Shown: piece after piece, positions 16,867-55,017 of the stretch | Numbering within the stretch: position 1 is the stretch's first letter | Layout of the letters: each line of letters starts with the position of its first letter | Assembly (NCBI GenBank): GCA_037127585.1 | Contig: JBAXYB010000001.1 | Span: 9,147-73,146 of the forward strand | Direction: 5' to 3' | From: Verrucomicrobiota bacterium | GTDB taxonomy: Bacteria; Verrucomicrobiota; Verrucomicrobiia; Palsa-1439 | DNA: 64,000 nucleotides | Program-made: the position numbers and the translations under genes | Notes under the pieces: model-generated | What the model saw: the letters and a program-made list of their open reading frames with translations, nothing else | Database searches by the model: none | Told to the model about the DNA's origin: nothing

Positions 16867-16985
16867 TACTCCGAATTGATCGGAGATCGTGGTGAGGTTG
16901 AACAGCCTGAAGCAAAAGGAACATGGCGAGTGCGAAGCAAGACGATGTATCGCGCGAGAAAGATTCTAACTGGAGAGGTTCTATC

Positions 16986-19900
16986 ATGAACATGGCAATG
17001 CCGTTTTCTCGAGTTTTGAAACTCCTGACAGGGTTCAACGTTCTGGCCGCGCTCCTCCTCGCGCCGCCGGCGAATGTCTTCGCCGCCGACTCCATTTGGA
17101 CCAACACGACAGCCGGCGGCAACTTTGGCGACACGACCGCGATTTGGAGCAACGGCGTCCCGGGCGTCAATGACAACGCCATCTTCACCAACAATTTCGC
17201 CTACTCGGTCACCAACGTCGCCGGCGCAAGTTTCCTCAACGCCAACGCTTCCTTCAACGGCACCAGCGGCATCGTGACCGGCAAGTTCGGCACGGGAACA
17301 TGGACGCTGACCAATAGTTTCATCGTCGGCCAAAACGCGGGCAACACTGCCACGGTCGTCTGGGTCAACGGCACGTTGGCGGTGACCAATGGCGGTACCG
17401 CACAACTGATCGTCGGCGGAATTGGAAGCACCGGCTCCTCGTTTAATCTCTACGGCGGCACCGCCATCGTCAATAAGGTCACGATCAACAGCGGCGCCAC
17501 GCTCAACTTCAACGGCGGCACGCTCGGCGTCGGGGCCGGCGGCACCACCGTTTCCGGGACGGGCGCTGTCAGGATCGCCGCCAGTCAGACCGCGTTTGTG
17601 GACACGATGGGCAACAACGCCACCATCAACAGCGTCATCCAAGGCAGCAACGGCGGCCTGACCAAGTCCGGTACCGGCATGCTCGTGCTCGGGACCAACA
17701 ACACTTTCACCGGCAACCTCACCGTCAATGCCGGCACGGTCATGGTCATGGCCACCAACACGCCGTTGGCGAACCAGACTGTGAACCTCACCGGTGGTAG
17801 CAAATTCACATTCGGCCAAGTGACCACGAATTTTACGACGAGCTTTACATCAAGCACGACGTGGGTAGATCCGGCGGGTGTCAGCAGCGCGAATCTATTG
17901 GTGGTCGGTGGTGGTGGCGGCGGTGGTGGGAATCGCGGTGGCGGTGGTGGCGGTGGTGGCGTCACCAACCTCACCGTATCGTTAACCCCCGGCAACACCT
18001 ACACCATTACCGTTGGCACGGGTGGCGGAGGGGGCAGTGCTAACGTGGCGGGAACAAAAGGTGGAAACTCGGCTTTCTCCAATGCCGTATTGACAGCACT
18101 GGGCGGTGGTGGCGGTGGCAGTTTCGGTGCCGCTGCGACCTCTGGCGGTTCGGGTGGCGGTGGCGATAACAATTCGGCTCACTTTGCCGGCGGCACTGGA
18201 ACCCCAGGACAGGGGAATGCCGGCGGGACTGGGGTTGCTAATGATTCTGCCGGCGGCGGCGGCGCCGGTGGGGTGGGGTCGAATGGACAAACCGGTGTTA
18301 AAGGTGGGAATGGCGGCATCGGATTGTATTTTGCGGCTTTTTCAAGTTATGGCGCCTCGGGCTATTTCGGCGGTGGTGGTGGTGGCGGCTCCGGCAGTAG
18401 CGGGAATGGCGGCGGCGGCGTCGCCGGAACCGGCGGGTTGGGCGGTGGCGCCAATGGAACCACCGGGGATAACAACGCAGCCCCGACCGCGGCTCAGGCG
18501 AATACCGGCGGTGGCGGCGGCGGAGAAACAGGGGGTGGCAGCGGAACTGGCAGCGCCGGTGGGTCCGGCATCGTCCTCGTGCAGTGGGTGGGGCAGACGA
18601 CTGCGAACTATCTACTCACCAACGTCAATTTCTCGCTCCTGACCGGGGCGATCTTGGATTTCAGCGGGAACAACGTCAGCATCGCCTCGCTGGCGGGCGG
18701 CGACGCGAGTGGCATCGTCACCAACAGCTCCAGCACGCTGGCTTCGATCTTCACCATCACCAACGCGACGGGCAGCGCCACCTATGACGGCCAGATCACG
18801 GGCGGTGGGGCGATCAGCCTCGTCAAGGCCGGCGGCGGCACTGAGATTCTGACCGGCTCCAACACCTTCTCTGGCACCGTGACCGTCAACGGCGGGACGT
18901 TGATGCTGGGCAGTCTCTACTCCCTCGGCGTCAGCAACTCCGTCACCGTCAGCACCGGCGGCAGCATCGTTGCCACCAACGCCGGCACCTCCTACATTGT
19001 CGGCAACGGCGGGAGCAACGTGACGGTGCTGATCAGCGGCAGCGGCTCGCTCTGGACCAATGCCGGCGCCTTTGTAATCGGCAGTGGCGCGGCGACCGGC
19101 AACGTCGTCACCGTCAACGCCGGCACGCTGGCGGCGGGGGCCTTGATGATCGGCACCAACGGTGCGATGCGCAACAGCCTGCTGATCACCAACGGCGGCC
19201 AAGTCGTCGGCACGGTGGCCAGCACGCTCGGGTTTACGGCCAACAGCAACACGATCACGGTCGCCGGCAACGGGGCCCTCTGGAATTCCAGCGCGGCCGG
19301 GATCACGGTGGGCACCGGCGGTTCGACCGGCAACGTGCTAAACGTCAACAGCGGCGGCAGCGTCATCGCCAATGGCCTGACCATCAATGCCGGCGCCACC
19401 GATTGGAGCAATTTTGTCAATGTCGCCGCGGGCAGCCTGTTTGTTACTAACGCTGCCGGGTCGGCCTCGTTGATCGTCGGTGGGAACGGACTGGTGTTGG
19501 CCAACAACGGTCTGGTGGTGGTCTCGAGCAATCTGGTGATCGGCGCCACTGGACTCGGCACCTTTACCACCAGCGGCGGATCGATCGCGGGCGTGGCCGG
19601 CCAGAACCTGAGCGTGATTCTCGGCCAGACCACCACCGGCACCGGGGTGTTCACCGTCGCCAGCGGCAGCACCTACATCACCAACGGCGGCAACGCCAAG
19701 TTGATCATCGGCCAGAGCGGGCGGGGCACGCTGACGTTGAACGGCGGCAACCTGATTGTGGACCAGTTGTTCATGACCAACAACACGGCCACGACGACCA
19801 ACTCATTCCTCACCAGCACTAGCAGCGCCAACGTCACCATCCAGAACGGCTCGAGGTTCAACGTGAATCTGGCGCAACTGGCGATCAATGGCACGTGGCT

Positions 19901-41838: not shown

Positions 41839-42600
41839 ATGCGGATGACAACAATCGTGGCGGCGCTGGCAGTTCTCGGCCTCGCGTTTGGGGCGCAGGC
41901 GGCGGACGTGAAGGTGTGGACCAGCGATGTGGTGTCGGACGAGACGTGGACGAATGCGGTGAAGGAGTTGAAGCTGATCACGTTGGTCGGCGCCCGGAAT
42001 GGGTTCTATTCCGGCAAGCTCGTGGTGGAATCCACGCACACCATCACGGGAGTGAAGGCTTCCGTGGATTCGCTGACTGGGCCCGGTGGTGCCATTCCCG
42101 CTGCGGATGTGCAAGTTCGCTACGCGCAGTATTGGCCGGGAATGCATTGGGGGGGTGTCAGAATGGCGGCCATTCAGGCCGGATATCTTGCTGGACAATG
42201 CGCCGGCGGTGACGCCGGTAAAAGGACGTGCCTTGCTGCCAATATGGGTCACGGTGCAACTCCCCAGGGAAACCAAGGCCGGGACCTGCACGGGCGAAGT
42301 CACGGTCCTGCTGGATGGCGACAAGAAAACCAAGCTTGGCGATGAGTTGGCCAAGCGCTGTCAGGTGGCCCTGGACGCGCATCAGCGGGCGATGTGGAAG
42401 ACGCAATGGAGCAATGATGAAGATTTGAACAGTCTGGGAACGTTGGGCGATTCAGGAGGCTTCATCTTGAATGGTGTGCCGCAGTACGGGATATGGAATG
42501 TCCTGCAGAAGGATGCGCAGAAATTGGCGGAGAGGCATCCCGGACTAAAAGGCCAGAGCCCCCACAATGCCAGCGACTATCGAAACGAATCGGTACAATG
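41839..42600 (+). pseudogene. Fragments of a secreted GH123/DUF6067-like glycoside hydrolase
   Basis: Signal peptide; LVGARNGFYSGKLVV, IPAADVQVRYA, PIWVTVQLP..KAGTCTGEVTV; then a jump to LGDELAKRCQ; frameshifted. Confidence 0.55.
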
Positions 42601-42669: not shown

Positions 42670-44535
42670 ATGAAAATCAGTGTTGCCCTGTTATTCGCCC
42701 TCTGCGCAACCGCGCAGGCTCTTATCAATCCGAACTTTACGCCGATCCACCTGATGAAACAGTCGGACACGGTTCTCGATCTGCAGTTGAACCCGGCAAA
42801 GGACGGTGTGGTCACCGCTTCGGTCAAGTCCGTGATCAAGGGCAAGTTCGCAGCCAAGACCATTTCGTTGGATCTCAAGGACGTGACGATTCCGGCGCAG
42901 CGAGAGGTTGTGGAACAGATCGCGGGCGCACCGAGAGCCGAACCGGCGCTCTTTTTCATCGGCAAGATCGGTGAGGAGGGCGATGCCGCTGGTGGGGGAG
43001 GCAATGCCGGCAACGACGTGCGGGGGTTCCTGCATGCCGAATGCCAATGGATCTCGTTCGACAAGGACAAGGATGTCTGGTCCATGAACGACATCAATAA
43101 CAAGATGTTGGGAACCTGGAACGGCGGCACCGACATGCTGCGCAAGTTGGTGGACTATATCCTGACGGATCCGGATGCCGATGTTCCCTGCGAGGAAAAA
43201 GTGTCCTGGGGCAAGCCGGTGAAGTTTGCCACCCTCAGCGGCAAGGTGCGCGCCGTGGCCCCGGTGACGCTGGTGAACGGTGGCCGGCAGTTGCTCTTTG
43301 TAACGGCTGATTCCGGCGACAAACTGTTCGTGTACGACGACAAGAGCCGTGGCCTGAACGATGTCTCCTCCGAGCACAAGCTGGCCGCCAAATCCACCGT
43401 CGCGACCTGGGGCGACCTGAATGCCGATGGGCGCATGGACCTGGTGAGCTGGAATGGCACAGCCGTGACCGTCTATCTTCAGGATTCAAATGGTGTGCTG
43501 CAGGCAGACGCCAAACTGCCGGCCAGCGAAGTCAAGGGCGGCTGCACGTCGCTTGCCGTGATTGACTCCGGCGTGGCTGGTCATCCCGCCGTGTTGATTG
43601 GCACAGCCGCCATGCCGTTGCTCTGGACACCCGCCCTCGGCGCCGAGGCGCAGGCCGCCAAACCCGTGGCTGCCGGCGAGGCGCCGGTCAAGGATCTCGG
43701 CGCGGCTGGTCGCTGTTTCGTGGCCGACTTCGATGGCGACGGTTACGCGGACATCCTGCAACTCTTTGCCAAGGGGAGCCTGGTCTACAAGGGCAAGGCG
43801 GTCGGGCAATTCGAATCGCCGAAGCCGTGCGATGTGTTCCTCGGTCCCGGGAACTCCGACGCCTTTCTGGGCGATATCGACGGCGACGGGTTGCTCGATC
43901 TCTTCACCCTCGGCGACAACACGCGGGTCTGGAACAACCGCGGTGCGATGAAGTTCGTCAATGTCATGCAGGAGAGTGGGGAATTTACCTACAAAGGGGC
44001 CACCTATTCCCACTGCGGTGCGGTCGGCGATATTAACGGCGATGGCCGTCAGGATGTGATCTGCTTCTATGAGAACGGCGTGCCGCACATCAACTTCAAC
44101 CGCGGCTTCCGCAGTTTCGGCCACGCGAACAGCATCGACCTGCAATCGACTGGCGTGATCCCGGGAGCCGGCGATGGTCAGCAGACCGGTTGCTGGACGA
44201 ATCTCAAAGGCGATGGCATCCAGGAAATCGTCATTGTCCTCACCAACGGGGAGATCTGGTTCATGCCCGTGATACCGGACGGCGGCAGTGAAAAGGGTGG
44301 TTGTGTCCGTGTCATGCTTTCGTCCACGGGATCGTACGCCGGCCCGCTGAACGTGGTCGGCTGGCGGGGCAAGCGCTGCCTGGGCACCTGGAACGTTCTG
44401 CCCGGCACGACCGAGGGGTTTGTTGCCCAGAATGAAGCCGGACCTGTGACCATCAAGTGGCGGCTCCCCGGCGGCAAACTGATGGAAAAGAAGGTCACGG
44501 TTGAAAACGCACCGGTGAAATTGATGTTGCCGTGA
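42670..44535 (+). CDS. Secreted FG-GAP/VCBS-repeat (Ca-binding beta-propeller) protein
   Basis: Signal peptide MKISVALLFALCATAQA; GDLNADGRMDL, ADFDGDGYADI, GDIDGDGLLDL, GDINGDGRQDV. Confidence 0.85.
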   Translation: MKISVALLFALCATAQALINPNFTPIHLMKQSDTVLDLQLNPAKDGVVTASVKSVIKGKFAAKTISLDLKDVTIPAQREVVEQIAGAPRAEPALFFIGKIGEEGDAAGGGGNAGNDVRGFLHAECQWISFDKDKDVWSMNDINNKMLGTWNGGTDMLRKLVDYILTDPDADVPCEEKVSWGKPVKFATLSGKVRAVAPVTLVNGGRQLLFVTADSGDKLFVYDDKSRGLNDVSSEHKLAAKSTVATWGDLNADGRMDLVSWNGTAVTVYLQDSNGVLQADAKLPASEVKGGCTSLAVIDSGVAGHPAVLIGTAAMPLLWTPALGAEAQAAKPVAAGEAPVKDLGAAGRCFVADFDGDGYADILQLFAKGSLVYKGKAVGQFESPKPCDVFLGPGNSDAFLGDIDGDGLLDLFTLGDNTRVWNNRGAMKFVNVMQESGEFTYKGATYSHCGAVGDINGDGRQDVICFYENGVPHINFNRGFRSFGHANSIDLQSTGVIPGAGDGQQTGCWTNLKGDGIQEIVIVLTNGEIWFMPVIPDGGSEKGGCVRVMLSSTGSYAGPLNVVGWRGKRCLGTWNVLPGTTEGFVAQNEAGPVTIKWRLPGGKLMEKKVTVENAPVKLMLP

Positions 44536-44579
44536 TGTGCATCAATCCGGCCTTGGAATAGGATCTTCTTGGAGAAAAC

Positions 44580-47231
44580 ATGCTGACATCCATTATTGAA
44601 GGGTCGATACATCTGGCTGTTGTACCGATTCTGATTGGTCCGCTTCAGGTGCTGCTGGCAATTCTGCCGGCAATCCTCGTGGCCATTGGCGGCGTCATTG
44701 CCGCCATGCTGAAACCCGCCTCGATCAAGATCGGGCTGCAGGTGCTTTGGCGCAACAAGATCCCGACGCTGGCCATCGTGGCCGTGATCGGCGGCGCCTG
44801 TTACGGGTTCTCATACCTCCACGGATTCGGCGGCGGCAAGGCCGCCGCTTTCCAGGGCAAAACGGAGTGGGCCATGTACCGCGGCGGGCTTGACCGTCGC
44901 GGCGGCGGGAGGGACGGCGCGCCGGACCCCGTGGGCGGTGGCGAGGTATGGGCCTTTGCGCAGAAATTCAAGACGTACTACTCCTCGCCCGCGATCATCG
45001 GCAACCGCATCGTGGCCGGGGCCGCGAAGAAGGAAGTGTTTGCCGACCGTGGCGGCATCTACTGCCTCGACGCCCAGAGCGGCGCCATGGTGTGGGAGTT
45101 TGCCCCGTCCGACTTCCGCGCCACCTATTCCTCGCCAGCGGTCTCCGGTAAGTACGTGGTATGCGGCGAGGGGCTCCACCTTACGACCGACGCCCGCATT
45201 TTTTGCCTCTCGTTCGAAACCGGTAAGAAACTGTGGGAAGTCAAGTCCGCCAGCCACGTCGAATCGTCGCCCTGCATCTACACCAACATGGTCTTCTGCG
45301 GGGCCGGCGCGGATGGCGTGTATGCCATGCGGCTCGACACGCCGCCCGGCAAATCGCCCGTGGTGTGGCATCTCAAGAGCTTCCGCGACATGGGGCTGGA
45401 CTCCGCCAATACGTTCCATTGCGACTCTTCGCTCGCCGCGGTGAACGGGCGCGTCTATTTCACTTCGGCCGAGTTGCATGACGGCGACTGGAGCGGCATC
45501 GCCTGCGTGGACGCCGCCACCGGCAAGTGCATTTGGAAAGTGGATACCTCCATGCCGGTCTGGGGGTCGCCCACGATCATCAGCAACCGCCTGTTCGTTG
45601 GCATGGGCAACGGCAACATGGTGGAGAGCGCCGAGCAATACTGGGCCCGCAAACAGCAGGAACTGCGCAAGGCCGGCAAAAGCCCGAAAGAGATCAGCGC
45701 CCTCGCGCCGAAGTACGCGGCGGGCGGCGAACTCTGGGCCATTGACGCCATCACCGGCAAAACCAACTGGGTTCGCAAACTGGGCAAGACCATGCTGGGC
45801 ACCGTGGCGGTTGCCGACGATCGACTCTACTTCGCCGGATCGGATGGCATTTTCACGTGCATTACCATGGACAACGAACTGCTCGGACAGTGGGACGCCC
45901 ACGAGCCCATCAACACCTGTCCCGCCGTCGGTAGCAACCACGTGTATGTGGCGACGGACAGCGGCCGCTTCTTCGGCCTCGACCGACGCACGCTCAAGCC
46001 AGTCTGGCAAACGCGCCTCGGCAACGGCGCTCTCTTCTCCAGTTCGCCGGCCCTCGGTTTTGGGCACATCTACATCGGCACCCCTGAAAGAGGCCTGGTC
46101 TGCATGGGCAGCCCGGCTGACCAGCAAATCGAAATGGTCTGGAACGGCGCCCGTGGCGGCCACGGCAATTACGGTTCCGTGGACGGCAGTTTCCTGCCAG
46201 CCAAGGGGAGTTATTCCGACCGCTGGCCGAAAGACTTCGAAGGCGATCTGCCGCCAGTCAGTGGCTCCCTAGCCTGCCTGAACAACACGCTCTATGTGCC
46301 GGTCACCTTCGGCAGCCAGACCGGTCTGGCTGCCATGGCTGTCAGCAGCACTTCCTCCAAGTTGCCGGAGACCAATCAGTGGTTTGCCGCCACGGTCCTG
46401 CCGATCGCCGGAGCCGTGGCTGCCACCACCAGCCGTGTTTACTTTGTTGAAGGTAAGATCGGGGACGCCGGTCGCAAACTCCATTGCGTGGATGCGGTCA
46501 GCGGCAAGGATACCTGGCAGGCGACCGTTGATGCCGGAGCATCAGGAGAACTTCTGCTGACCACCTCCCATCTGTTCCTCTTCGGCCGGAATGGCGAACT
46601 CTCCTGCCTGGCCACCAAGGGGGCTGACGCTGGCAAGACGATCTGGTCGACCCCCGTGGGAGCCGGCATCGGTGTGCCATGCCTGATTGGCGACATCGTG
46701 GCCATCGCCACCAAGGAGGGTGTGGCCGCGCTGCAAAGCAGCACCGGCAAGCCACTCTGGAAACAGTCGTCGCCGAAGGCTCCCGTGACCGGGCCGGCCG
46801 CCAATGAAGACGTCGTGGTTGTCGCAACGGCGGACGGTCTGGCCGGGCTCAGCATCGTGAACGGGGCGACGTTGTGGTCGCTGAAGTGCGCCCCCTCGTC
46901 TGCGCCGCTGGTGACGGACGACAAGCGCGTGCTCTGCACCACGGCCGATGGCGAAATCAAGGCCGTGGGCTGGGACGGCAAGGAACTGTTCCATCTGGCG
47001 AACGCCATCCCCGGCATGCCGGCGATGCTGCTCGGCGACAAACTTCTTTTCTGCGCGCAAGGTGAGTTTACGGCCGTCGACCTTTCCGCGAAGAACGAAG
47101 AGAGCCGCTGGCTGGAAATAACACCGGATTTCCTGGGCAAGGTTATTGCGCCGCCGATTCTGGCCAATGGGTTTGTCTATTTCGTCACCGACCAAAAAGG
47201 GCTAGTCTCCACCAAACAGGGGAAACGATGA
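44580..47231 (+). CDS. Membrane-anchored protein with two PQQ-like (BamB-type) beta-propellers
   Basis: Hydrophobic N-terminus; EWAMYRGGLDRRG, repeated SSPA/CLDAQSGAMVW/DAATGKCIW blades; second propeller starts near VWNGARGG. Confidence 0.85.
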   Translation: MLTSIIEGSIHLAVVPILIGPLQVLLAILPAILVAIGGVIAAMLKPASIKIGLQVLWRNKIPTLAIVAVIGGACYGFSYLHGFGGGKAAAFQGKTEWAMYRGGLDRRGGGRDGAPDPVGGGEVWAFAQKFKTYYSSPAIIGNRIVAGAAKKEVFADRGGIYCLDAQSGAMVWEFAPSDFRATYSSPAVSGKYVVCGEGLHLTTDARIFCLSFETGKKLWEVKSASHVESSPCIYTNMVFCGAGADGVYAMRLDTPPGKSPVVWHLKSFRDMGLDSANTFHCDSSLAAVNGRVYFTSAELHDGDWSGIACVDAATGKCIWKVDTSMPVWGSPTIISNRLFVGMGNGNMVESAEQYWARKQQELRKAGKSPKEISALAPKYAAGGELWAIDAITGKTNWVRKLGKTMLGTVAVADDRLYFAGSDGIFTCITMDNELLGQWDAHEPINTCPAVGSNHVYVATDSGRFFGLDRRTLKPVWQTRLGNGALFSSSPALGFGHIYIGTPERGLVCMGSPADQQIEMVWNGARGGHGNYGSVDGSFLPAKGSYSDRWPKDFEGDLPPVSGSLACLNNTLYVPVTFGSQTGLAAMAVSSTSSKLPETNQWFAATVLPIAGAVAATTSRVYFVEGKIGDAGRKLHCVDAVSGKDTWQATVDAGASGELLLTTSHLFLFGRNGELSCLATKGADAGKTIWSTPVGAGIGVPCLIGDIVAIATKEGVAALQSSTGKPLWKQSSPKAPVTGPAANEDVVVVATADGLAGLSIVNGATLWSLKCAPSSAPLVTDDKRVLCTTADGEIKAVGWDGKELFHLANAIPGMPAMLLGDKLLFCAQGEFTAVDLSAKNEESRWLEITPDFLGKVIAPPILANGFVYFVTDQKGLVSTKQGKR

Positions 47232-49924
47232 GCAACGGATCTACTTCCGCGAAGGAGCAAAAACCGATGAGTGTCGCGCCATCCAGCCTTCCTCACATCC
47301 GATTCTTCGGGCTGGGCTTCACCGCCGATGCCATCCCGGAACTCGATGACGTGGGCGGCAAAGGGATCAACCTTTGCAAACTGACGGTCGCCAAATTTCC
47401 GGTCCCGCCCGGCTTTCTCGTCACAACCGAGGCCTACCGGCAGTTCGTCTCCGAGAACCACATGGGGGAACGTGTCCGGGCGATCGCGGAATCCATCGAC
47501 GAAAACGATGTCGAGGAACTGGAGCGGCTTTCCGCCAGTATCCGCGAGATCTTCGCCCAGAATCCGATCCCCAAGGCGCTGGAAGAGGAGATCCTGACCG
47601 CCTATCGCCAGCTGTGCAGCGCCGGCAGTGATCGCGTGGCGGTGCGTTCCTCAGCCACCGCCGAGGACCTGCCGGAAGCGACGTTTGCCGGCCAGCAGGA
47701 CACCTACCTCAACATCAGCGGCGAAGCGTCGGTGCTGAAACACGTCAAGTCCTGCTGGGGCAGCCTCTGGACCGCGCGTGCCGTGGCTTACCGGGCGAAG
47801 CAGGAAACTTCCATGGACGGCCTGGCGATGGCAGTCGTGGTGCAGCAGATGGCGCGCGCCGAGGCGGCAGGCGTCATGTTCACCGCCAACCCCGTCACCG
47901 GCGCCAAGGACGAAATCGTCATCAATGCCGCGTGGGGTCTGGGCGAATCCATTGTGGGCGGCAACGTCACGCCGGACAACATCGTGGTCGACAAGCCGAC
48001 CTTGAAGATCAAGGCCATCACGGTGGCCGAGAAGACCGTGATGACCGCTACCACCGAAACCGGAACCGTGGAAACGGAAGTGTCCGCGACCATGCGCAAG
48101 GCGCGCGTGCTGGACGACGATGCCGTGGCGCGTCTGGCGGAACTCGGCCGGCGCATCGAGCAGCACTACGGCACCGCCCAAGACATTGAATGGGCCGTAA
48201 TCGCCGGCGGCCAATTTGCCATGCTCCAGGCGCGCCCGATTCGCGGTCTGGACGTGATTGAGGATACTGCAGTCGGCCGCCAGGAAGAGATCAATCGCTT
48301 GCGCGCAGTTGCCGGCGCCAACCGCCGCGTCTGGGTCACGCACAACCTCGGCGAAACGCTTCCCTCGCCCACACCACTCACCTGGGACATTATCCGCGGA
48401 TTCATGAGCGGCAATGGCGGCTTCGGTCGCATGTACCAAGACCTCGGTTATCAACCCAGCGAGCAAGTCTGCCGCGAAGGATTCCTGGAATTGATTGCCG
48501 GACGCATTTACGCCGATCCCGAGCGCGCCGCCCAACTGTTCTGGGGCGGGATGCCGCTCTCCTACGACCTCGATGCCGTGGCCAAGAATCCCACCGTCAT
48601 GGATGCGGCACCGACCAAGTTCGATCCCGCCCGCGCCGACGGCAAGTTCCTGGTCGCGCTGCCGGGCCTGATCCGCCGCATGCTCAAATGCTCCAAAACC
48701 ATGAAGGCCGTGCGCCGGACCGTGCTGGACCGCTTCGAGAAGGAAATCCTGCCGCCCTACCTGAAGTGGGTCGCGGAGAAACGCCGGCAGAATCTGGCCA
48801 AGCTTTCCGTCGACGAGCTGCGCGCAGAGCTGCGGACCCGCGTCGACCGCGCACTCAACGAATTCGGCGGCGAATCGCTCATGCCCGGCTTCTTCGGCGG
48901 CCTGGCGGACGCTTCCCTCAAAGGCACGCTGACACAGCTCATGGGGCAGGAGTCCGGTACGCAGTTGGCCCTGGAACTGACGCAGGCGCTGGAAGGCGAC
49001 ACCACCATCGCGCAAAGCGTGGCCTTGTCGGACGTCGCCCAAGGCAAGCGCACGATCGAGAGTTTTCTGGAGGAATATGGCCACCGCACCGTGGAGGAGA
49101 TGGAACTCTCCCGCCCGCGCTGGCGCGAGGATTCTTCCTATATCAATCAGATGCTCGCCGTGTACAAAGGCCCCGGCGCGCATTCGCCCGAGGAAAAGCA
49201 CCACCGCAACGTCGAGCACCGCCAAAAGGTCGAGCACCACCTGCCCGAGACGCTGCGCCACTTCGGCGGCAGTTGTCTGTACGAGGATATCCTGATCGAC
49301 CTCAAGGACGCGCAACGGATGCTGCCATACCGTGAATCCGGCAAGCACTACCTGATGATGGGGTACGAGACCATCCGCCTCGTGATCGTCGAACTCGCCA
49401 AACGCTGGGATCTCGGCCGCGACATCTTTTTCCTCACCCTGGAGGAACTGCAGACCTACGAGGGGCGCCGCCAGGCAATGACCCCGATCATTGCCAGCCG
49501 CAAGCTTCGCTGGCAGTCGGCCCGGCGACTGGAAATGGCCGCGGTCGTGGATTCGCAGCAACTCGACGAACTTGGCCTGCCGAAAAAGTACGACAGCACG
49601 AACGAACTGCACGGCGACCCCATCGCCTCCGGTATTGCGGTGGGCATGGCCCGAATCGTGTTCGATCCAACCAAGGCCGCTGACTTCACCTCCGACTATG
49701 TGCTGGTCTGTCCGTCCACCGATCCCGGCTGGACCGCACTCTTTGTCCACGCCAAGGCGCTCATCGTGGAGCGCGGCGGCGTGCTGAGCCATGGCGCCAT
49801 CGTGGCGCGTGATTTTGGCATCCCGGCGCTCGTCTGCCCGGATGCCACCCGCCGCATCCCGGATCGCACCATGATCCGGGTCGACGGCAACCATGGTCGG
49901 ATCACCTTCGTGGAGGCCAAGTAA
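47228..49924 (+). CDS. PEP-utilising-family enzyme with RPH/PigC-like architecture (ATP-grasp, central substrate domain, swivelling phospho-His domain)
   Basis: VGGKGINL, VAVRSSATAED..FAGQQDTYLN, QDIEWA, LQARPI; C-terminal TDPGWT..GGVLSHGAIVARDFGIP; no pyruvate-binding TIM barrel. Confidence 0.88.
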   Translation: MSNGSTSAKEQKPMSVAPSSLPHIRFFGLGFTADAIPELDDVGGKGINLCKLTVAKFPVPPGFLVTTEAYRQFVSENHMGERVRAIAESIDENDVEELERLSASIREIFAQNPIPKALEEEILTAYRQLCSAGSDRVAVRSSATAEDLPEATFAGQQDTYLNISGEASVLKHVKSCWGSLWTARAVAYRAKQETSMDGLAMAVVVQQMARAEAAGVMFTANPVTGAKDEIVINAAWGLGESIVGGNVTPDNIVVDKPTLKIKAITVAEKTVMTATTETGTVETEVSATMRKARVLDDDAVARLAELGRRIEQHYGTAQDIEWAVIAGGQFAMLQARPIRGLDVIEDTAVGRQEEINRLRAVAGANRRVWVTHNLGETLPSPTPLTWDIIRGFMSGNGGFGRMYQDLGYQPSEQVCREGFLELIAGRIYADPERAAQLFWGGMPLSYDLDAVAKNPTVMDAAPTKFDPARADGKFLVALPGLIRRMLKCSKTMKAVRRTVLDRFEKEILPPYLKWVAEKRRQNLAKLSVDELRAELRTRVDRALNEFGGESLMPGFFGGLADASLKGTLTQLMGQESGTQLALELTQALEGDTTIAQSVALSDVAQGKRTIESFLEEYGHRTVEEMELSRPRWREDSSYINQMLAVYKGPGAHSPEEKHHRNVEHRQKVEHHLPETLRHFGGSCLYEDILIDLKDAQRMLPYRESGKHYLMMGYETIRLVIVELAKRWDLGRDIFFLTLEELQTYEGRRQAMTPIIASRKLRWQSARRLEMAAVVDSQQLDELGLPKKYDSTNELHGDPIASGIAVGMARIVFDPTKAADFTSDYVLVCPSTDPGWTALFVHAKALIVERGGVLSHGAIVARDFGIPALVCPDATRRIPDRTMIRVDGNHGRITFVEAK

Positions 49925-49925
49925 C

Positions 49926-50843
49926 ATGATGGAGTTCTTCAACACTCTCAACGCCTGGGTCGCCAACGGCGCCGACTGGATTTTCGGTTGGATTCTCTAC
50001 CTGCCACGCGACCTGCAATTGTTCGCCGTCGCGCTGTTCACTTCCGCCGCGCTCAACATTGCGCGCAAACTGCGCACCAAGGACCAGGAGTGGCTGCACC
50101 GCTCCGTGGCTGACGTGAGCCGCCAGAACGCGTTGATCAAGGAAGCAAAGAAGCGCGGCGACAAGGAGTCCGTGAATCGGCACAAGGACACCATCAACCT
50201 GATCAAAATGAAGACAATGCGCTTCGAAGGAAAACCGTTGCTGTGGGCATTGCTGCCGGTTGGACTGATCGCCACCTGGGCCTTCATGCGCGTTGCCTAC
50301 CTGCCGCCGCGTCTCAACGAGCCGGTCACTGTGAACGCCTACGTGGCGCGCACCGACATCGGCAAGACCGCGCACCTGGTGCCGGAACCCGGAATCGAAG
50401 CTGTGGACGGCTGGGTCCAACCGGTGGTGGAGGACAAGGTTCTTCCAATGACCGGTATCTGGGACCAGATCGGCGTCTGGATCGGCGATCACCTCCGCGG
50501 CATCCTCCACGGGAAATTGGCAGGCGTGCCGGCGCCGCCGCCCAACCTCGAAGGGGTGGTGACGTGGCACGTGATCGCCCACGATGCGAACCCGCACACG
50601 CTGAAAGTCCGCTACGCCGGACACACCTTCGAAATATCGTTTGTCGCCGGCCGACATCAGTACGAGGATCCGGTCAAGACCTTCAAAGATGCGTCGGTGC
50701 AGACCCTGGAAGTGATGTTGAAGCCGATGCGCCTCTTTGACTTCGTGGGCGATCTCTGGTTCCTCCCAGCGTGGATGACTGCCTACCTGATGATCTGTAT
50801 CGCGTTCTTCTACATCTTTCGGGGCGTTCTCAATATTGCGTAG
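49926..50843 (+). CDS. DUF106/EMC3/TMCO1-like (Oxa1 superfamily) membrane protein
   Basis: TM1, charged coiled coil (KEAKKRGDKE), KPLLWALLP TM2, soluble insert, then a C-terminal TM (AWMTAYLMICIAFFYIFRGVLNIA). Confidence 0.65.
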   Translation: MMEFFNTLNAWVANGADWIFGWILYLPRDLQLFAVALFTSAALNIARKLRTKDQEWLHRSVADVSRQNALIKEAKKRGDKESVNRHKDTINLIKMKTMRFEGKPLLWALLPVGLIATWAFMRVAYLPPRLNEPVTVNAYVARTDIGKTAHLVPEPGIEAVDGWVQPVVEDKVLPMTGIWDQIGVWIGDHLRGILHGKLAGVPAPPPNLEGVVTWHVIAHDANPHTLKVRYAGHTFEISFVAGRHQYEDPVKTFKDASVQTLEVMLKPMRLFDFVGDLWFLPAWMTAYLMICIAFFYIFRGVLNIA

Positions 50844-51434: not shown

Positions 51435-51579
51435 TCTGGGCCCCTCGGTGCACAAAAAACGGATGTTGATCTTCACCACGCGGCTCACGGCGCACGTTCT
51501 TGAGCGGGCAAGAATGTCCTTACGGAGTCAGAAGTTTGGGCTTGGGATGCGAAATCGCAGGCTGGTGTACCCTGTTCGC

Positions 51580-51837
51580 GATGATAAAAGGACGGCCCTG
51601 CAACTCAAGGCCTTGTGGACGTCAATGTTCGTGGAGATTCGGAAGCGGATGGAAAAGCGTGGTCTGGACAAGACCATGATGCTGGGGATGGTGTCCGACC
51701 TCTGGCCGGACAAAGAGCAAGTGACTTTCTGGAAGGAGGTGTCGGGGGAAATGCCGTGGGCGATCAGTGCGCACGGCTGCCCGACCGGCAATGGTATCGT
51801 TCAAGTGCAGCCACAGTTCTCCTGGGATGGCAGGTGA
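51580..51837 (+). pseudogene. Probable internal fragment of a GH123/DUF6067-like gene
   Basis: LWTSMFVEIRKRMEKRGLDKTMMLGMVSDLWPDKEQVTFWKEVSGEMPWAISAHG. Confidence 0.4.
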
Positions 51838-51921
51838 CCGCGAGTTGATAGTGGAATAATGAGGATCATTTGAAAAGCAGGGCCGGAGAGCTGTTGGCTG
51901 GCACGACTGGTTCGCCATTAT

Positions 51922-52503
51922 TCATAAGGTCGTCAGCCATATCAACTGCGTTTCATCCGGCAGTTCAGCATACGCAAAGCGATCCATGCTACGAAGGATG
52001 CAACCCTGGGCCGCATAGAACCGGCATGCCGGAACGTTGATGTTTTGAGTTTCAGCCAACAAAATTCGGCACCCTTGCTTCTCTGCCCATTCGGTGGCTG
52101 CAGTAAACAGCTTCGATCCAATGCCGTGACCTCGGTGGCGCGGATGGACGCGAATATCCCAGAGAACAGCGATGTCGTCTCTTCCTTCAAGCATCTCCAG
52201 TCCTGCTGTCTTGTAGGCCAAAACGCATCCCCCAACTCGTCGACCTGCGGTAACCGCTGACATCACTCCCCAATTAGCGATGTTCCATTTACTCGCCCAT
52301 CGAGTTGGCCCTTCCCCCTTCAGGGCATCATAGTCTTTCGTGAATGGCGCATCGAGTTTGCGTTCCACAAGAGATATTCCACCCAGTCCGGAATCCTGAA
52401 GTTGAACGTCAAACACGCTGAGAACGTCATAGCGGATAGGAATCTCGCCATACGCTTCCAAGATACTGAGCGGTTCCTCCACGATCTTGCAGTCAAAAGT
52501 CAT
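51922..52503 (-). CDS. GNAT acetyltransferase (streptothricin-acetyltransferase-like)
   Basis: LWDIRVHPRHRGHGIGSKL, AETQNINVPACRFYAAQG. Confidence 0.85.
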   Translation of the reverse strand: MTFDCKIVEEPLSILEAYGEIPIRYDVLSVFDVQLQDSGLGGISLVERKLDAPFTKDYDALKGEGPTRWASKWNIANWGVMSAVTAGRRVGGCVLAYKTAGLEMLEGRDDIAVLWDIRVHPRHRGHGIGSKLFTAATEWAEKQGCRILLAETQNINVPACRFYAAQGCILRSMDRFAYAELPDETQLIWLTTL

Positions 52504-52509
52504 GATTCT

Positions 52510-52771
52510 CTTCTGGCGAACATTGGCCATAAGGCCTTGCACAAGATCGCGGATCTCGGCTATGGGGCCAACGTCTACAGCATCAGTTATAATGTCAACC
52601 CGGATAAGGGCCGGAAGAAATGTCCCGCGCGTCTTTTCTCCCCCAACCATACCACTGATGTATGATGAAGGGAAGAAAGGCCAGGCGCAATTCGTCATCG
52701 GCTGGCAGGACCGGGAGAAGAAGCTCTTTGAGCTTGCAGGCGAAGTTGCGGTCAAACTCAACTTTAAGTAG
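52510..52771 (+). pseudogene. Further probable GH123/DUF6067-like fragments, including a C-terminus
   Basis: KIADLGYGANVYSISYNVNPDKGR, then FVIGWQDREKKLFELAGEVAVKL* in another frame. Confidence 0.35.
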
Positions 52772-53114
52772 CACAAAGAAAAGAGGCGGTTATCAGACGG
52801 AGATCATGAAGCGCGCTTGGGACACGCAGGAGGCCATCGCGATCAAGCGCATCCTTACGGATTTCCGCGCGGGGGTGGCGCCGGCCAAGATGGAAAGCGG
52901 CACGAAGATGGGTTTCTTTTCACCCTAAAAGACGATGGGAAATTTTTTTGGAGACATTCACGCCTCTGCCCCAACCCTTGGGCGACTTCTTGACGACGCC
53001 CATCGACTGGGGCATGCTGCGATTTGCCGAGGGGACAGAATGATCCGGTGAGACAGGTAACGGCGGTCAACCGCTCCGTACCGGGTGAAAGAAAATCACA
53101 AGCAAGAAAAGGAC

Positions 53115-53943: not shown

Positions 53944-55017
53944 ATGGGAAAACTAATTGAAGAACGCAAGGCCCGCTGGACTGATTTTTATGACCTGAGC
54001 CAGAAGCCAAGTCAGATGTTTCTGATCCGGGTCCCGGAAACAGTACCGGAACAGGTTGTGCCGATGCCCGACCGGAAAATGGAGCGCATTGAATGGGCGT
54101 GGAATCAGTACCGGAGACAAAGGGAGAAAGCGGCCTGGCTGGATGATGACGCGATTCCCTATCTGCATGTGCATACCGGCACGGAGATTTTTGCGGCGGC
54201 CTTCGGGAGTCCGGTTCACCAGGTTGGCAAGGACATGCCGTGTGCGTTACCGTTTATCACCGACGCCTCCCAGGTGTCGAAGATAAAAGTCCCCGATCTT
54301 GATACTCCCTGCTTAAGAATCATCTTTGAGATTGCCGACGAACTGAAGAAGCGCGCCGGGCCGGACGCGATCTTGAGGATGGTGGATGTTCAGAGCCCGA
54401 TGGGGATTGCTTCCTCGATGTGGGCGAAAGACTCATTCTTTCTCGCGATCACCGATCAACCCGAGGCGGTCAAAGAGCTGGCCGCCAAAGTGAATCAGTT
54501 GATCGTTACTTTTCTTGAGGAATGGTTTCAGCGCTACGGGGCCGGTTTTGTCGCGCACTATCCGGATTACTACATGCCGAAGGGAATTACGCTGTCGGAA
54601 GATGAGATTGGCTGTGTGGGGCCGGAGGTATTCCACGATCTGTTTCGTCCGGAACTGGCCAAATTATCGCAGCATTTCGGGGGGATTGGTTTGCACTGCT
54701 GTGCCAACGCCCGGCATCAGTGGGCCGGTTTGAAGAGCATCCCGGGGTTGAAACTCCTGAATCTGAATCAATCAGAGGAGGTCTTGCGTGAGGCCTATTC
54801 TTTCTTTGGCGCCAACGTGCCGCAAATGCATATTCCGTGTGTGGGCACCTATCCGCTAACCTGGAAGGACCACCTTGACGGGCGCGTTGTGTTGGAGGTG
54901 CCGGTGGAGTCCAAGGAACAAGCGATAGATCTGGCCGCCCAGATCAGGAAGAAAGTAAGCGTCAGCCAGGACTTTCAATTACCCACAAGTTGTGAGCGGG
55001 AAAAGAATTGTAAGTAG
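53944..55017 (+). CDS. Uroporphyrinogen decarboxylase/cobalamin methyltransferase (URO-D) superfamily protein; last codons lie inside IS4
   Basis: TGTEIFAAAFG, DVQSPMGIAS, LSEDEIG, LHCCANARHQW. Confidence 0.7.
   Translation: MGKLIEERKARWTDFYDLSQKPSQMFLIRVPETVPEQVVPMPDRKMERIEWAWNQYRRQREKAAWLDDDAIPYLHVHTGTEIFAAAFGSPVHQVGKDMPCALPFITDASQVSKIKVPDLDTPCLRIIFEIADELKKRAGPDAILRMVDVQSPMGIASSMWAKDSFFLAITDQPEAVKELAAKVNQLIVTFLEEWFQRYGAGFVAHYPDYYMPKGITLSEDEIGCVGPEVFHDLFRPELAKLSQHFGGIGLHCCANARHQWAGLKSIPGLKLLNLNQSEEVLREAYSFFGANVPQMHIPCVGTYPLTWKDHLDGRVVLEVPVESKEQAIDLAAQIRKKVSVSQDFQLPTSCEREKNCK

What the first reader, a model, noticed from the sequence alone, without database searches (positions are those of the whole stretch)
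42670..50843. Intact four-gene envelope operon: FG-GAP protein, double PQQ propeller, RPH/PigC-like phosphotransferase and EMC3/TMCO1-like membrane protein
Seen: four co-directional, undisrupted genes with tight junctions (ATGA overlap at 47228-47231; 1-nt gap at 49925), flanked on both sides by decayed DNA. Established: the ATP-grasp + central domain + phospho-His layout without a pyruvate barrel is that of rifampin phosphotransferase and the PigC/RedH condensing enzymes, which act on non-pyruvate small molecules. DUF106/EMC3/TMCO1/Get1 proteins are Oxa1-superfamily insertases known mainly from archaea and eukaryotes. Inference: this may be an undescribed PVC system coupling cytoplasmic dikinase-type substrate activation to a periplasmic propeller platform, with its own insertase or channel-like subunit. 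I know of no described pathway with this combination.
Basis: partly seen in the sequence, partly recalled or inferred. Interest (0 to 1): 0.85.

Follow-up and report, generated by a model that had tools for sequence, protein, structure and literature searches.

The report
Conserved dikinase–DUF106–propeller envelope gene module
This stretch holds an intact gene cluster, kept together across many PVC bacteria, that pairs a rifampin-phosphotransferase-like enzyme with a bacterial relative of the archaeal/eukaryotic EMC3/TMCO1 membrane insertases and a membrane-anchored double propeller; its job is unknown and seems undescribed.

Summary
Four intact + strand genes lie at 42670-50843, with the stated junctions, and broken glycoside-hydrolase-123-like gene fragments sit on both flanks.

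The core is three genes, not four. In 46 related loci, the dikinase-like gene sits directly upstream of the DUF106-like gene in 45. The propeller gene sits directly upstream of the dikinase in 36 of 37 loci with room. The FG-GAP gene is adjacent in only 7 of 24. In 401 genomes of the window's phylum, the same 9 hold both the dikinase ortholog and the DUF106-like gene.

The enzyme has the rifampin phosphotransferase (RPH) layout. It keeps the swivel His and the acceptor-site Arg/Glu/Lys, but it fails every NCBIfam equivalog cut-off, so it is not RPH, PigC or PEP synthase.

The membrane protein is a divergent DUF106/Oxa1-superfamily member with a beta-sandwich insert. The genome also has a normal YidC.

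A fold of the enzyme with the membrane protein's coiled coil gave only weak support.

The function is unknown. My best guess is a membrane-docked dikinase-type phosphotransferase complex. I found no description in the papers searched.

The parts
41890..42526 (+). Remnant of a GH123-like (PF13320-family) gene. It has pieces matching residues 37-112, 121-178 and 570-636 of a 684-aa intact relative, with a frame change and the middle ~390 residues missing.
   Evidence: tblastn of intact GH123-like neighbours from L029/L035/L049 against the window. Pfam of those neighbours. No Pfam hit for the local ORFs.
42670..44535 (+). FG-GAP/VCBS-type propeller protein with an N-terminal hydrophobic signal-like segment. 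Alternative starts are 42634 and 42493. It is a variable accessory of the module.
   Evidence: Pfam FG-GAP_3 E 9.9e-22. One N-terminal hydrophobic segment at residues 60-78 of the long frame. Orthologs align from residues 46-83 on. Adjacent in 7 of 24 loci.
44580..47231 (+). Membrane-anchored tandem beta-propeller (BamB/PQQ_2-like). It has three N-terminal helices (19-43, 46-58, 60-82) with conserved Pro/Gly, followed by two all-beta regions at 122-509 and 543-880.
   Evidence: Pfam PQQ_2 E 9e-49. AlphaFold2 model with pLDDT 82. Foldseek hits: tetrathionate hydrolase E 5.6e-19, BamB, and tandem-WD proteins over ~800 columns. Conserved N-terminal residues in 23 orthologs. Directly upstream of the dikinase in 36 of 37 loci.
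47228..49924 (+). Cytoplasmic RPH-family dikinase-type phosphotransferase. It consists of an ATP-grasp domain (about 40-345), an Rph_4th-type central domain (about 345-790) and a C-terminal swivel domain with His855. The alternative start is 47267.
   Evidence: Pfam. NCBIfam hits all below cut-off. RPH-Lm 5fbs at E 7.1e-91, with R702/E703/K706 aligned to R666/E667/K670. Invariant residues in 28 orthologs. PF27448 Rph_4th. No hydrophobic segment.
49926..50843 (+). DUF106/EMC3/TMCO1-like three-TM protein (305 aa). It has a basic coiled-coil hairpin between TM1 and TM2 (about 51-102) and a beta-sandwich insert between TM2 and TM3 (about 127-264).
   Evidence: Always paired with the dikinase ortholog.
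51562..52768 (+). Fragments of a second GH123-like gene, matching residues 349-417, 426-455 and 631-684 of the 684-aa relative. About 745 nt lie between the first two pieces, and that stretch carries a GNAT gene on the minus strand.
   Evidence: tblastn. ORF cluster link. GNAT domain in the minus-strand ORF 51922-52776.

Best explanation
SHOWN. The region encodes a module conserved across the PVC superphylum. Its obligate core is three genes in fixed order:
- a membrane-anchored periplasmic tandem beta-propeller;
- a cytoplasmic enzyme of the rifampin-phosphotransferase (RPH) family;
- a divergent DUF106/Oxa1-superfamily three-TM protein.
An FG-GAP propeller and GH123-like glycosidases are variable accessories. 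In this window the glycosidase genes are decayed.

The enzyme keeps the residues needed for both half-reactions of an RPH-type dikinase: the ATP-grasp Lys45, the swivel His855, and the acceptor-site Arg702/Glu703/Lys706. It is not RPH, PigC or PEP synthase by the curated models.

INFERRED. The three core proteins form one inner-membrane complex.
- The basic cytoplasmic coiled coil of the DUF106-like protein holds the enzyme at the membrane, much as Get1's coiled coil receives Get3.
- The DUF106-like TM helices pack against the conserved N-terminal helices of the propeller protein.
- Its beta-sandwich insert and the propellers face the periplasm.
- The enzyme uses ATP (giving AMP + Pi) to phosphorylate, via His855, a hydroxyl on an unknown substrate. 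That substrate is probably hydrophobic or membrane-bound.
- The phosphorylation is coupled to a periplasmic, probably glycan-related, process.

The genome's ordinary YidC does the housekeeping insertion.
For: Synteny:
- The dikinase is directly upstream of the DUF106-like gene in 45 of 46 related loci.
- The propeller is directly upstream of the dikinase in 36 of 37 loci with at least 300 nt of room.

Co-occurrence:
- Of 401 genomes of the phylum, 9 hold a strong DUF106-like match and 1 more a weak one.
- Exactly the same 9 hold a central-domain ortholog of at least 457 bits. The two genes are adjacent on one contig in 8 of them, and at contig ends in the ninth.
- 6 genomes hold only a 31-34% paralog of the central domain, without the membrane gene next to it.

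Gene junctions are tight: an ATGA overlap or 35-nt gap, and a 1-nt gap.

Enzyme:
- The best solved relative is RPH-Lm (5fbs/5hv1, E 7.1e-91), aligned over 42-344 and 598-894.
- H855, R702, E703 and K45 are invariant, and K706 is at least 90% conserved, in 28 orthologs.
- By the alignment these residues correspond to RPH-Lm His825, Arg666, Glu667, Lys22 and Lys670. Passages of PMC4844700 name those residues as catalytic.
- The central domain carries Pfam Rph_4th.
- The enzyme has no hydrophobic segment.

Membrane protein:
- 25 of 30 family members hit PF01956.
- The family profile hits Mj0480 at E 1.1e-4.
- The model shows TM1, a coiled coil, TM2, a beta domain, then TM3.
- The top of 48,161 chains by VIA-align is 7tut_8: Z 9.9, 139 residues aligned, rmsd 3.8.
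- The coiled coil carries 13 K/R against 8 D/E and many invariant charged residues.

Other:
- A separate YidC is present in the genome, at 199.7 bits.
- The N-terminal helices of the propeller protein have invariant P16, P21, L29 and P46.
- Complex prediction of the full enzyme with residues 26-124 of the membrane protein gave weak support: score 0.52, best of 3 controls 0.00. The mark was reached by 58 of 80 solved complexes and 2 of 110 mismatched pairs. At 0.60 or under it was reached by only 7 of those 80 and by both mismatches that passed. The runs agree in at least 55% of contacts, and the partner's pLDDT is at least 63.
Against: - No direct evidence exists for any contact. The one complex prediction is weak, and by the tool's own calibration is more often wrong than right unless the guess was likely beforehand.
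- The window's own DUF106-like protein has no Pfam hit at all.
- Foldseek against the PDB found nothing at E<=0.001.
- The VIA Z of 9.9 lies below the level (about 13) at which helical matches are safe.
- The substrate is unknown. The first half of the central domain (345-597) does not align to RPH-Lm.
- One locus (L028) has the membrane gene without the dikinase, and one (L037) has no propeller gene next to the dikinase.
- Neighbours beyond the core are variable and give no pathway.
- Expression and co-transcription are untested.
- The loci and 45/79 come from overlapping genome collections and from related organisms, so the counts are not independent events.
Confidence: 0.5

Rival explanations
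1. Dedicated insertase. The DUF106-like protein is a private YidC-like insertase or assembly factor that puts the unusual three-helix anchor of the co-encoded propeller protein into the membrane. The dikinase-like enzyme has a separate cytoplasmic task and is linked only by regulation.
For: - Characterised Oxa1-superfamily members are insertases (passages of PMC5868721).
- The fold and profile evidence place the protein in that superfamily.
- The propeller protein has conserved N-terminal TM helices.
- Archaeal DUF106 proteins pair with a small TM partner through their last helix (passages of PMC8675477).
Against: - The genome has a normal YidC.
- The tightest and most exclusive link of the membrane gene is to the dikinase, not the propeller: 45 of 46 adjacency and identical presence in 9 of 401 genomes.
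- A private insertase would not explain why an RPH-type enzyme with all catalytic residues conserved is always there.
Confidence: 0.2
2. Phosphorylation-coupled conduit. The DUF106-like protein uses its hydrophilic groove to flip or pass a lipid-linked or amphipathic substrate. The docked dikinase phosphorylates that substrate at the inner leaflet, as an ATP-driven analogue of PTS group translocation. The periplasmic propellers and GH123-like enzymes receive or supply the substrate.
For: - The RPH central domain resembles EIIA and HPr of the PTS (passage of PMC4844700).
- Insertases of this superfamily are reported to scramble lipids (bioRxiv 10.1101/2023.09.01.555937; listing and start of the abstract only).
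- GH123-like and FG-GAP genes recur beside the core.
- The prediction that the enzyme docks on the coiled coil has weak support: score 0.52 against a best control of 0.00.
Against: - No transport or scrambling evidence exists for this family.
- A three-TM protein is a poor transporter on its own.
- The accessory genes are absent from most loci (7 of 24 and 8 of 46) and are decayed in this window while the core is intact. The core therefore does not need them.
Confidence: 0.15
3. Ordinary antibiotic-resistance RPH (or a PEP synthase) that merely sits beside unrelated envelope genes.
For: - The best solved relative is Listeria RPH.
- Two public records name relatives 'rifampicin phosphotransferase', and many name them 'pyruvate,water dikinase'.
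Against: - NCBIfam scores are below cut-off: RIF_Ptrans_rph 425.5 against 999, Rph NF000283 299.1 against 1700, and PEP synthase TIGR01418 406.4 against 739.75.
- No PEP/pyruvate barrel domain is present.
- The part of RPH-Lm that holds its rifampin-contact residues 356-387 (PMC4844700 passage) is not aligned.
- The fixed gene order across phyla argues against a chance neighbour.
Confidence: 0.04

Closest known systems
Rifampin phosphotransferase (RPH-Lm, PDB 5fbs/5hv1) and the wider RPH-homolog group
   Same: - The order is ATP-grasp domain, then a central acceptor-binding domain (Pfam Rph_4th), then a C-terminal swivel His domain.
- The aligned catalytic residues are Lys45, His855, Arg702, Glu703 and Lys706.
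- PMC4844700 (passage) says many homologs have diverged to substrates other than rifampin.
   Different: - It is below the curated RPH cut-offs.
- The first half of the central domain is not alignable.
- It is always encoded with a DUF106-like membrane protein and a propeller protein, which I did not find described for RPH.
- Most orthologs carry a PPDK-type rather than a PEPS/RPH-type ATP-grasp sequence.
PigC / RedH prodiginine-condensing enzymes
   Same: Same three-domain layout without a pyruvate barrel (NCBIfam hits).
   Different: Scores are 352.9 against cut-off 1300, and 348.8 against 1350. No pigment-pathway genes lie nearby.
DUF106 / archaeal YidC (Mj0480/Ylp1), EMC3, TMCO1, Get1 (Oxa1 superfamily)
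   Same: [quoted passage not shown]
- Relatives hit PF01956.
- The ESM Atlas places an archaeal (Woesearchaeota) EMC3/TMCO1 cluster of 281 aa at TM 0.75/0.81 over 272 residues.
   Different: - It is bacterial (PVC).
- It has a beta-sandwich domain of about 140 residues between TM2 and TM3.
- It co-exists with a normal YidC.
- It is obligately paired with a dikinase-type enzyme.
- No ribosome or insertase link is shown.
Get1/Get2-Get3 receptor arrangement
   Same: By analogy only: an Oxa1-superfamily protein whose cytosolic coiled coil would receive a cytosolic nucleotide-using partner, plus a second TM partner. The Get1-Get3 docking is recalled, and Fig. 1 legend of PMC5868721 mentions delivery by TRC40/Get3.
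   Different: The partner is a dikinase, not an ArsA-type ATPase. Binding is only weakly predicted. No tail-anchored clients are known.
BamB and PQQ-type eight-bladed propellers
   Same: The fold and repeats match.
   Different: - It is tandem and anchored by N-terminal TM helices.
- BamB equivalog scores 133.7 against 285.2, and PQQ alcohol dehydrogenase 56 against 480.
- It is therefore neither BamB nor a quinoprotein by those models.

Membership tests
Rifampin phosphotransferase (RPH) | ATP-grasp, then central domain, then C-terminal swivel phosphohistidine domain, with no PEP/pyruvate barrel | tested here: met
   Pfam PPDK_N at 41-342 and PEP-utilizers at 822-890, with no PF02896. Rph_4th on the protein. 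Alignment to 5fbs.
Rifampin phosphotransferase (RPH) | Catalytic His of the swivel domain and acceptor-site Arg/Glu/Lys | tested here: met
   H855, R702 and E703 are invariant and K706 is at least 90% conserved in 28 orthologs. They align to RPH-Lm His825/R666/E667/K670 (roles from PMC4844700 passages).
Rifampin phosphotransferase (RPH) | Score at or above the curated equivalog cut-off | tested here: not met
   NF041857 scores 425.5 against 999. NF000283 scores 299.1 against 1700.
Rifampin phosphotransferase (RPH) | Rifampin-binding pocket, and rifampin phosphorylation | tested here: inconclusive
   Query residues 345-597 are not aligned to RPH-Lm by phmmer. Activity cannot be tested with these tools.
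PEP synthase / PPDK | C-terminal PEP/pyruvate-binding barrel, and equivalog score | tested here: not met
   No barrel domain in Pfam. TIGR01418 scores 406.4 against 739.75. PRK06241.1-3 scores 491.7 against 945.
PigC/RedH | Equivalog score | tested here: not met
   352.9 against 1300, and 348.8 against 1350.
DUF106 / EMC3_TMCO1 (PF01956) | Match to the family profile | tested here: inconclusive
   The window's own protein has 0 hits at E<=10. 25 of 30 aligned relatives hit at E<=1, best 2.3e-7. 3 of 31 relatives have a precomputed PF01956 hit and 4 are named DUF106 by JGI. The family profile hits Mj0480 at E 1.1e-4.
Oxa1 superfamily | [quoted passage not shown] | tested here: met
   The AlphaFold2 model (pLDDT 77) has helices 28-50, 54-77, 80-123 and 282-302. 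Hydrophobic segments lie at 105-123 and 277-302, and the hairpin is basic.
Oxa1 superfamily | Fold match to a solved member | tested here: inconclusive
   - VIA-align wide: 7tut_8 ranks first of 48,161 chains at Z 9.9, 139 aligned, rmsd 3.8. That this chain is TMCO1 is recalled, not verified.
- WRB 6so5_D scores Z 7.2.
- Both are below the tool's caution level for helical proteins.
- Foldseek found none at E<=0.001.
Oxa1 superfamily | Insertase activity / ribosome or targeting-factor binding | not testable with these tools
   No assay is available.
BamB | Equivalog score; lipoprotein of the BAM complex | tested here: not met
   TIGR03300 scores 133.7 against 285.2. NF008351 scores 85.1 against 423. 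It has N-terminal TM helices instead of a lipoprotein signal.
FG-GAP repeat proteins | Pfam FG-GAP_3 above cut-off | tested here: met
   77.8 bits against 26.9, in 4 stretches.

The most novel reading that the evidence does not exclude
PVC bacteria have co-opted an archaeal-type Oxa1-superfamily (DUF106) protein as the membrane receptor and conduit of an RPH-type dikinase, not as a general insertase. Together with a TM-anchored tandem propeller, it would form a new kind of trans-membrane machine. In that machine, ATP-driven phospho-His transfer at the inner face is coupled to the handling or flipping of a membrane-bound substrate used in the periplasm. This would be a GET-like architecture doing PTS-like chemistry.
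Probability: 0.15. Interest if true: 0.9.

Novelty: new variant of a known kind. Interest (0 to 1): 0.68.

Why it matters
DUF106/EMC3/TMCO1 proteins are treated in the papers I read as archaeal and eukaryotic insertases. Here a large bacterial branch exists: 816 clusters at 50% identity have E<=0.001, and 244 have E<=1e-30. It is found beside a normal YidC and is always encoded with a dikinase-type enzyme.

RPH homologs are described as a large unexplored enzyme group with unknown substrates (PMC4844700 abstract and passage). A branch with a fixed membrane partner gives a concrete handle on one such function.

If the proteins do form a complex, it would show a new use of the Oxa1 fold. It would also add a new envelope system in a superphylum known for unusual cell envelopes and polysaccharide use.

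The pairing is easy to test by co-purification and by a His855 mutant.

Tried and rejected
- Anti-phage defence: none of the four proteins hits PADLOC at E<=0.01.
- Foldseek of the DUF106-like model against the PDB gave nothing at E<=0.001. The list was filled by beta-sandwich proteins matching the insert.
- Expression: the look-up of sequencing runs listed no RNA holder. Three metatranscriptome runs of the same study held next to none of the words. Read laying was therefore not used, and co-transcription stays untested.
- A further conserved partner: clustering all ORFs of at least 100 aa in the 46 loci plus the window found only the three core genes, FG-GAP (12 loci) and GH123-like (8 loci) as recurrent real genes. 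The other recurrent clusters were opposite-strand shadow frames of the core. Pfam of ten genes next to the core in nine loci (nine just downstream, one upstream) gave unrelated families or none: CheR-TPR, metallophosphatase, URO-D, esterase, VWA/MG2, FKBP and SdiA-regulated, with no family for three.
- A tree separating this enzyme clade from true RPH, PigC and PEP synthase was not built. The search by central domain listed only close orthologs (the best 120 of 551, all at least 53% identical). I had no tool-given sequences of the reference enzymes. The curated NCBIfam cut-offs stand in for that test.
- The far tail of the DUF106-like family, which would show an archaeal link, could not be seen. 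The best 150 of 816 hits were all strong, at E<=1e-50. The archaeal look-alike cluster in the ESM Atlas is a lead only.
- Only one complex job was allowed.
- Literature: searches for DUF106 with bacteria and 'Oxa1 superfamily', DUF106 with Planctomycetes, Ylp1/DUF106/EMC3 with PVC names, and RPH terms with PVC names found no description of this module. No listed paper held an RPH term. Supplements were closed and were not seen. The homolog lists of PMC8887752 and PMC4844700 might contain such proteins.


Full report
**1. What is there**

Four + strand frames fill 42493/42670-50843 without interruption.

- Gene 1: FG-GAP_3 (E 9.9e-22).
- Gene 2: PQQ_2/BamB-like repeats (E 9e-49).
- Gene 3: PPDK_N (E 4.4e-108) plus the PEP-utilizers mobile domain (E 1.2e-19), with no PEP/pyruvate barrel.
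- Gene 4: nothing in Pfam, even at E<=10, and nothing in NCBIfam.

- ATGA at 47228-47231.
- TAA at 49922-49924, one base, then ATG at 49926.
- A 44-nt spacer before gene 2.

Two details on starts:
- The public gene call of the enzyme begins at its residue 14, i.e. 47267. The overlap is therefore one of two possible starts.
- The long frame of gene 1 from 42493 overlaps a pseudogene remnant.

**2. The flanks**

Intact GH123-like proteins (Pfam GH123_cat) are encoded next to the cluster in other genomes. They match the window in broken pieces on the + strand.

- Upstream: 41890-42135, 42170-42337 and 42305-42526. These match residues 37-112, 121-178 and 570-636 of a 684-aa relative, with a frame change and the middle missing.
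- Downstream: 51562-51780, 52525-52614 and 52607-52768. These match residues 349-417, 426-455 and 631-684. A GNAT gene on the other strand lies between the first two pieces.

Further out the genes are intact and unrelated: SSF symporter, histidine phosphatase, PhyH and URO-D-like.

**3. Conservation**

The membrane protein has 31 relatives in the 5.8-billion-protein set. Four of them are named 'DUF106 family' by JGI, and three have a precomputed PF01956 hit. A profile of 30 of them (A1) finds 816 clusters at 50% identity with E<=0.001, and 244 with E<=1e-30.

Scanning one genome per species found 44 loci. All are MAGs labelled Planctomycetota, Verrucomicrobiota, Kiritimatiellia, Lentisphaerae/Victivallales or unclassified, plus one Firestonebacteria. 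Two more loci came from relatives of the window's genome.

Across these 46 loci:
- The dikinase-like gene lies directly upstream of the DUF106-like gene in 45. The miss is L028.
- The propeller gene lies directly upstream of the dikinase in 36 of the 37 loci with at least 300 nt of room. The miss is L037.
- The FG-GAP gene is directly upstream of the propeller gene in 7 of 24 loci with at least 600 nt of room, and somewhere in the locus in 12 of those 24.
- GH123-like genes occur in 8 loci, 7 of which also hold FG-GAP.

The Firestonebacteria locus L025 has the full order GH123-like, FG-GAP, propeller, dikinase, DUF106-like. That is the order of this window with its first member decayed.

The module is sparse:
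- It is in 2 of 40 relatives.
- It is in 10 of 401 genomes of the phylum, counting the window's own genome and one weak hit.
- In the same 401 genomes, central-domain orthologs of the enzyme (at least 457 bits, at least 49% identity) occur in exactly the 9 genomes with a strong DUF106-like match. They sit next to it on the same contig in 8, and at contig ends in the ninth.
- Six genomes hold a 31-34% paralog of the central domain in frames of about 1200 aa, without the membrane gene next to it. Four of those six have no DUF106-like match.

These genome sets overlap and the organisms are related, so the counts are not independent events. The pattern is nevertheless an obligate pair inside an obligate triad.

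**4. The enzyme**

- The best solved relative is Listeria RPH (5fbs/5hv1, deposited as 'phosphoenolpyruvate synthase') at E 7.1e-91. It aligns over residues 42-344 and 598-894.
- The protein and its relatives carry Pfam PF27448. The ESM Atlas names this Rph_4th. It is missing from the local Pfam copy.
- In 28 orthologs (A2), K45, H855 (in GGVLSHGAIVARDFGIP), Y701, R702 and E703 are invariant, and K706 is at least 90% conserved.
- By the printed alignment, these residues correspond to RPH-Lm Lys22, His825, Arg666, Glu667 and Lys670. Passages of PMC4844700 give those as the residues of the two phosphotransfer steps. The dikinase chemistry is therefore very likely kept.
- It is not RPH, PigC, RedH or PEP synthase by NCBI's curated models. 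Every hit is far below its cut-off.
- Residues 345-597, where RPH binds rifampin, do not align.
- Most orthologs have a PPDK-type ATP-grasp sequence, while the window's is PEPS/RPH-type.
- The protein has no hydrophobic segment.

**5. The membrane protein**

The window's copy misses Pfam, but the family evidence is good:
- 25 of 30 relatives hit PF01956 EMC3_TMCO1 at E<=1, best 2.3e-7.
- The family profile hits archaeal Mj0480 (5c8j) at E 1.1e-4, over TM1, the coiled coil and TM2.

The AlphaFold2 model (pLDDT 77) shows:
- an N-terminal helix;
- TM1 (28-50);
- a long hairpin (54-102) running into TM2 (to 123);
- a beta domain (127-264);
- TM3 (282-302).

Fold comparisons:
- Foldseek found nothing significant.
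- A Foldseek-independent scan ranked chain 8 of the multipass-translocon entry 7TUT first of 48,161 chains: Z 9.9, 139 of 177 residues aligned, rmsd 3.8. I recall this chain as TMCO1 but could not verify it.
- WRB/Get1 (6so5_D) scored Z 7.2.
- Invasin/intimin Ig-like domains matched the insert at Z 7.3.
- All these Z values lie in the range the tool calls unsafe for helical or common folds.
- The ESM Atlas puts a Planctomycetota cluster first (0.95; PF01956 on 17% of members). By structure it puts an archaeal Woesearchaeota EMC3/TMCO1 cluster of 281 aa at TM 0.75/0.81 over 272 residues. This hints that the insert also exists in some archaeal DUF106 proteins, but it is a lead only.

Topology:
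- The hairpin has 13 K/R against 8 D/E and many invariant charged residues.
- With the N-out/C-in topology described for the superfamily (PMC5868721), the hairpin is cytoplasmic and the beta domain periplasmic. This is inference.
- The genome has a normal YidC at 199.7 bits. This protein is therefore an extra, not the housekeeping insertase.

**6. The propellers**

The model of gene 2 (pLDDT 82) has helices at 19-43, 46-58 and 60-82, a disordered linker, and two all-beta regions at 122-509 and 543-880.

- Foldseek gives tetrathionate hydrolase (E 5.6e-19), BamB, a designed eight-bladed propeller, and tandem-WD proteins aligned over about 800 columns. 'Double propeller' holds.
- It is neither BamB nor a quinoprotein by the NCBIfam cut-offs.
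- Its N-terminal helices carry invariant P16, P21, L29 and P46, and near-invariant G20, L22, Q23, L25 and P30. That is more conservation than a plain anchor needs.

**7. How it may work**

Shown:
- a fixed triad;
- a cytoplasmic enzyme with intact dikinase residues;
- an Oxa1-like membrane protein with a conserved basic cytoplasmic hairpin;
- a periplasmic tandem propeller on a conserved TM anchor.

Inferred:
- The three form one inner-membrane complex.
- The hairpin docks the enzyme.
- The last TM helix of the DUF106-like protein packs against the anchor of the propeller protein. Archaeal and eukaryotic relatives pair with EMC6/Get2-like partners in this way (PMC8675477 passages).
- The enzyme phosphorylates an unknown substrate, probably hydrophobic or membrane-bound. 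RPH and PigC act on hydrophobic small molecules.

The one test of contact was the full enzyme with residues 26-124 of the membrane protein. It gave weak support:
- Score 0.52 (runs 0.53, 0.51, 0.52), best of 3 controls 0.00.
- The mark was reached by 58 of 80 solved complexes and 2 of 110 mismatched pairs.
- At 0.60 or under, it was reached by only 7 of those 80 and by both mismatches that passed.
- The runs agree in at least 55% of contacts, and the partner's pLDDT is at least 63.
- No interface was released.

The recurring GH123-like and FG-GAP genes hint at a glycan-related periplasmic side. The core survives here without intact GH123-like genes, however, so they are dispensable.

**8. Rivals**

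- A private insertase for the propeller anchor is possible. It does not explain the exclusive tie to the enzyme.
- A phosphorylation-coupled conduit is the boldest reading and is untested. It draws on the PTS-like ancestry of RPH and on reported lipid scrambling by insertases (listing and start of the abstract only).
- Plain RPH or PEP synthase is rejected by the cut-offs and the missing barrel.
- Anti-phage defence has no support.

**9. Novelty and verdict**

Each part belongs to a known superfamily. The fixed pairing of an RPH-type enzyme with a bacterial DUF106-like protein and a TM-anchored tandem propeller was not found in four literature searches. The papers read treat DUF106 as archaeal and eukaryotic. 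Supplements could not be opened.

I rate it a new variant of known kinds: real, widespread in PVC metagenomes, function unknown. Interest is 0.68.

Noticed in passing
window 51922-52776 (-): The GNAT acetyltransferase ORF has its Pfam domain only in residues 174-258. Its N-terminal part overlaps the GH123-like remnant on the other strand, so the real gene is probably shorter. It sits inside the gap of the decayed GH123-like gene.
   Followed up: partly
window 53944-55017 (+) and L026 10469-11629 (+): A URO-D-like gene lies a short way downstream of the module both in the window and in a Thermoguttaceae MAG. That is only two cases, so it may be chance.
   Followed up: no
A2 alignment; L006 2371-5196: Orthologs of the enzyme come with two kinds of ATP-grasp sequence. 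Most are PPDK-type, while the window's is PEPS/RPH-type. The central and swivel domains stay 45-60% identical, which suggests domain replacement within one orthologous family.
   Followed up: partly
G410:C73, G072:C1, G071:C236, G316:C137, G200:C11, G139:C10: A second class of Rph_4th-type proteins occurs in 6 of 401 genomes of the phylum. It is 31-34% identical in the central domain, in open frames of about 1200 aa, and has no DUF106-like gene beside it.
   Followed up: no
L042, L043, L046, L047; G289, G398, G071, G410, G425: In some lineages the DUF106-like protein aligns only over its first ~165-170 residues, or in two separate stretches. The beta insert is therefore much more variable than the TM1-hairpin-TM2 part.
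   Followed up: no
L028 2791-3648: This is the only locus where the DUF106-like gene has no dikinase gene upstream, although 2.8 kb of upstream sequence is available. The upstream ORFs were not identified.
   Followed up: no
window 8774-15091 (+) and 16923-22256 (+): Two very long open frames, of 2105 and 1777 aa, lie elsewhere in the window. They were not examined.
   Followed up: no
ESM Atlas rows for P0005: By predicted structure, clusters from Aminicenantota (TM 0.64) and Acidobacteriota (TM 0.62, auto-named ResB-like) also resemble the whole membrane protein. The family may therefore reach beyond PVC.
   Followed up: no
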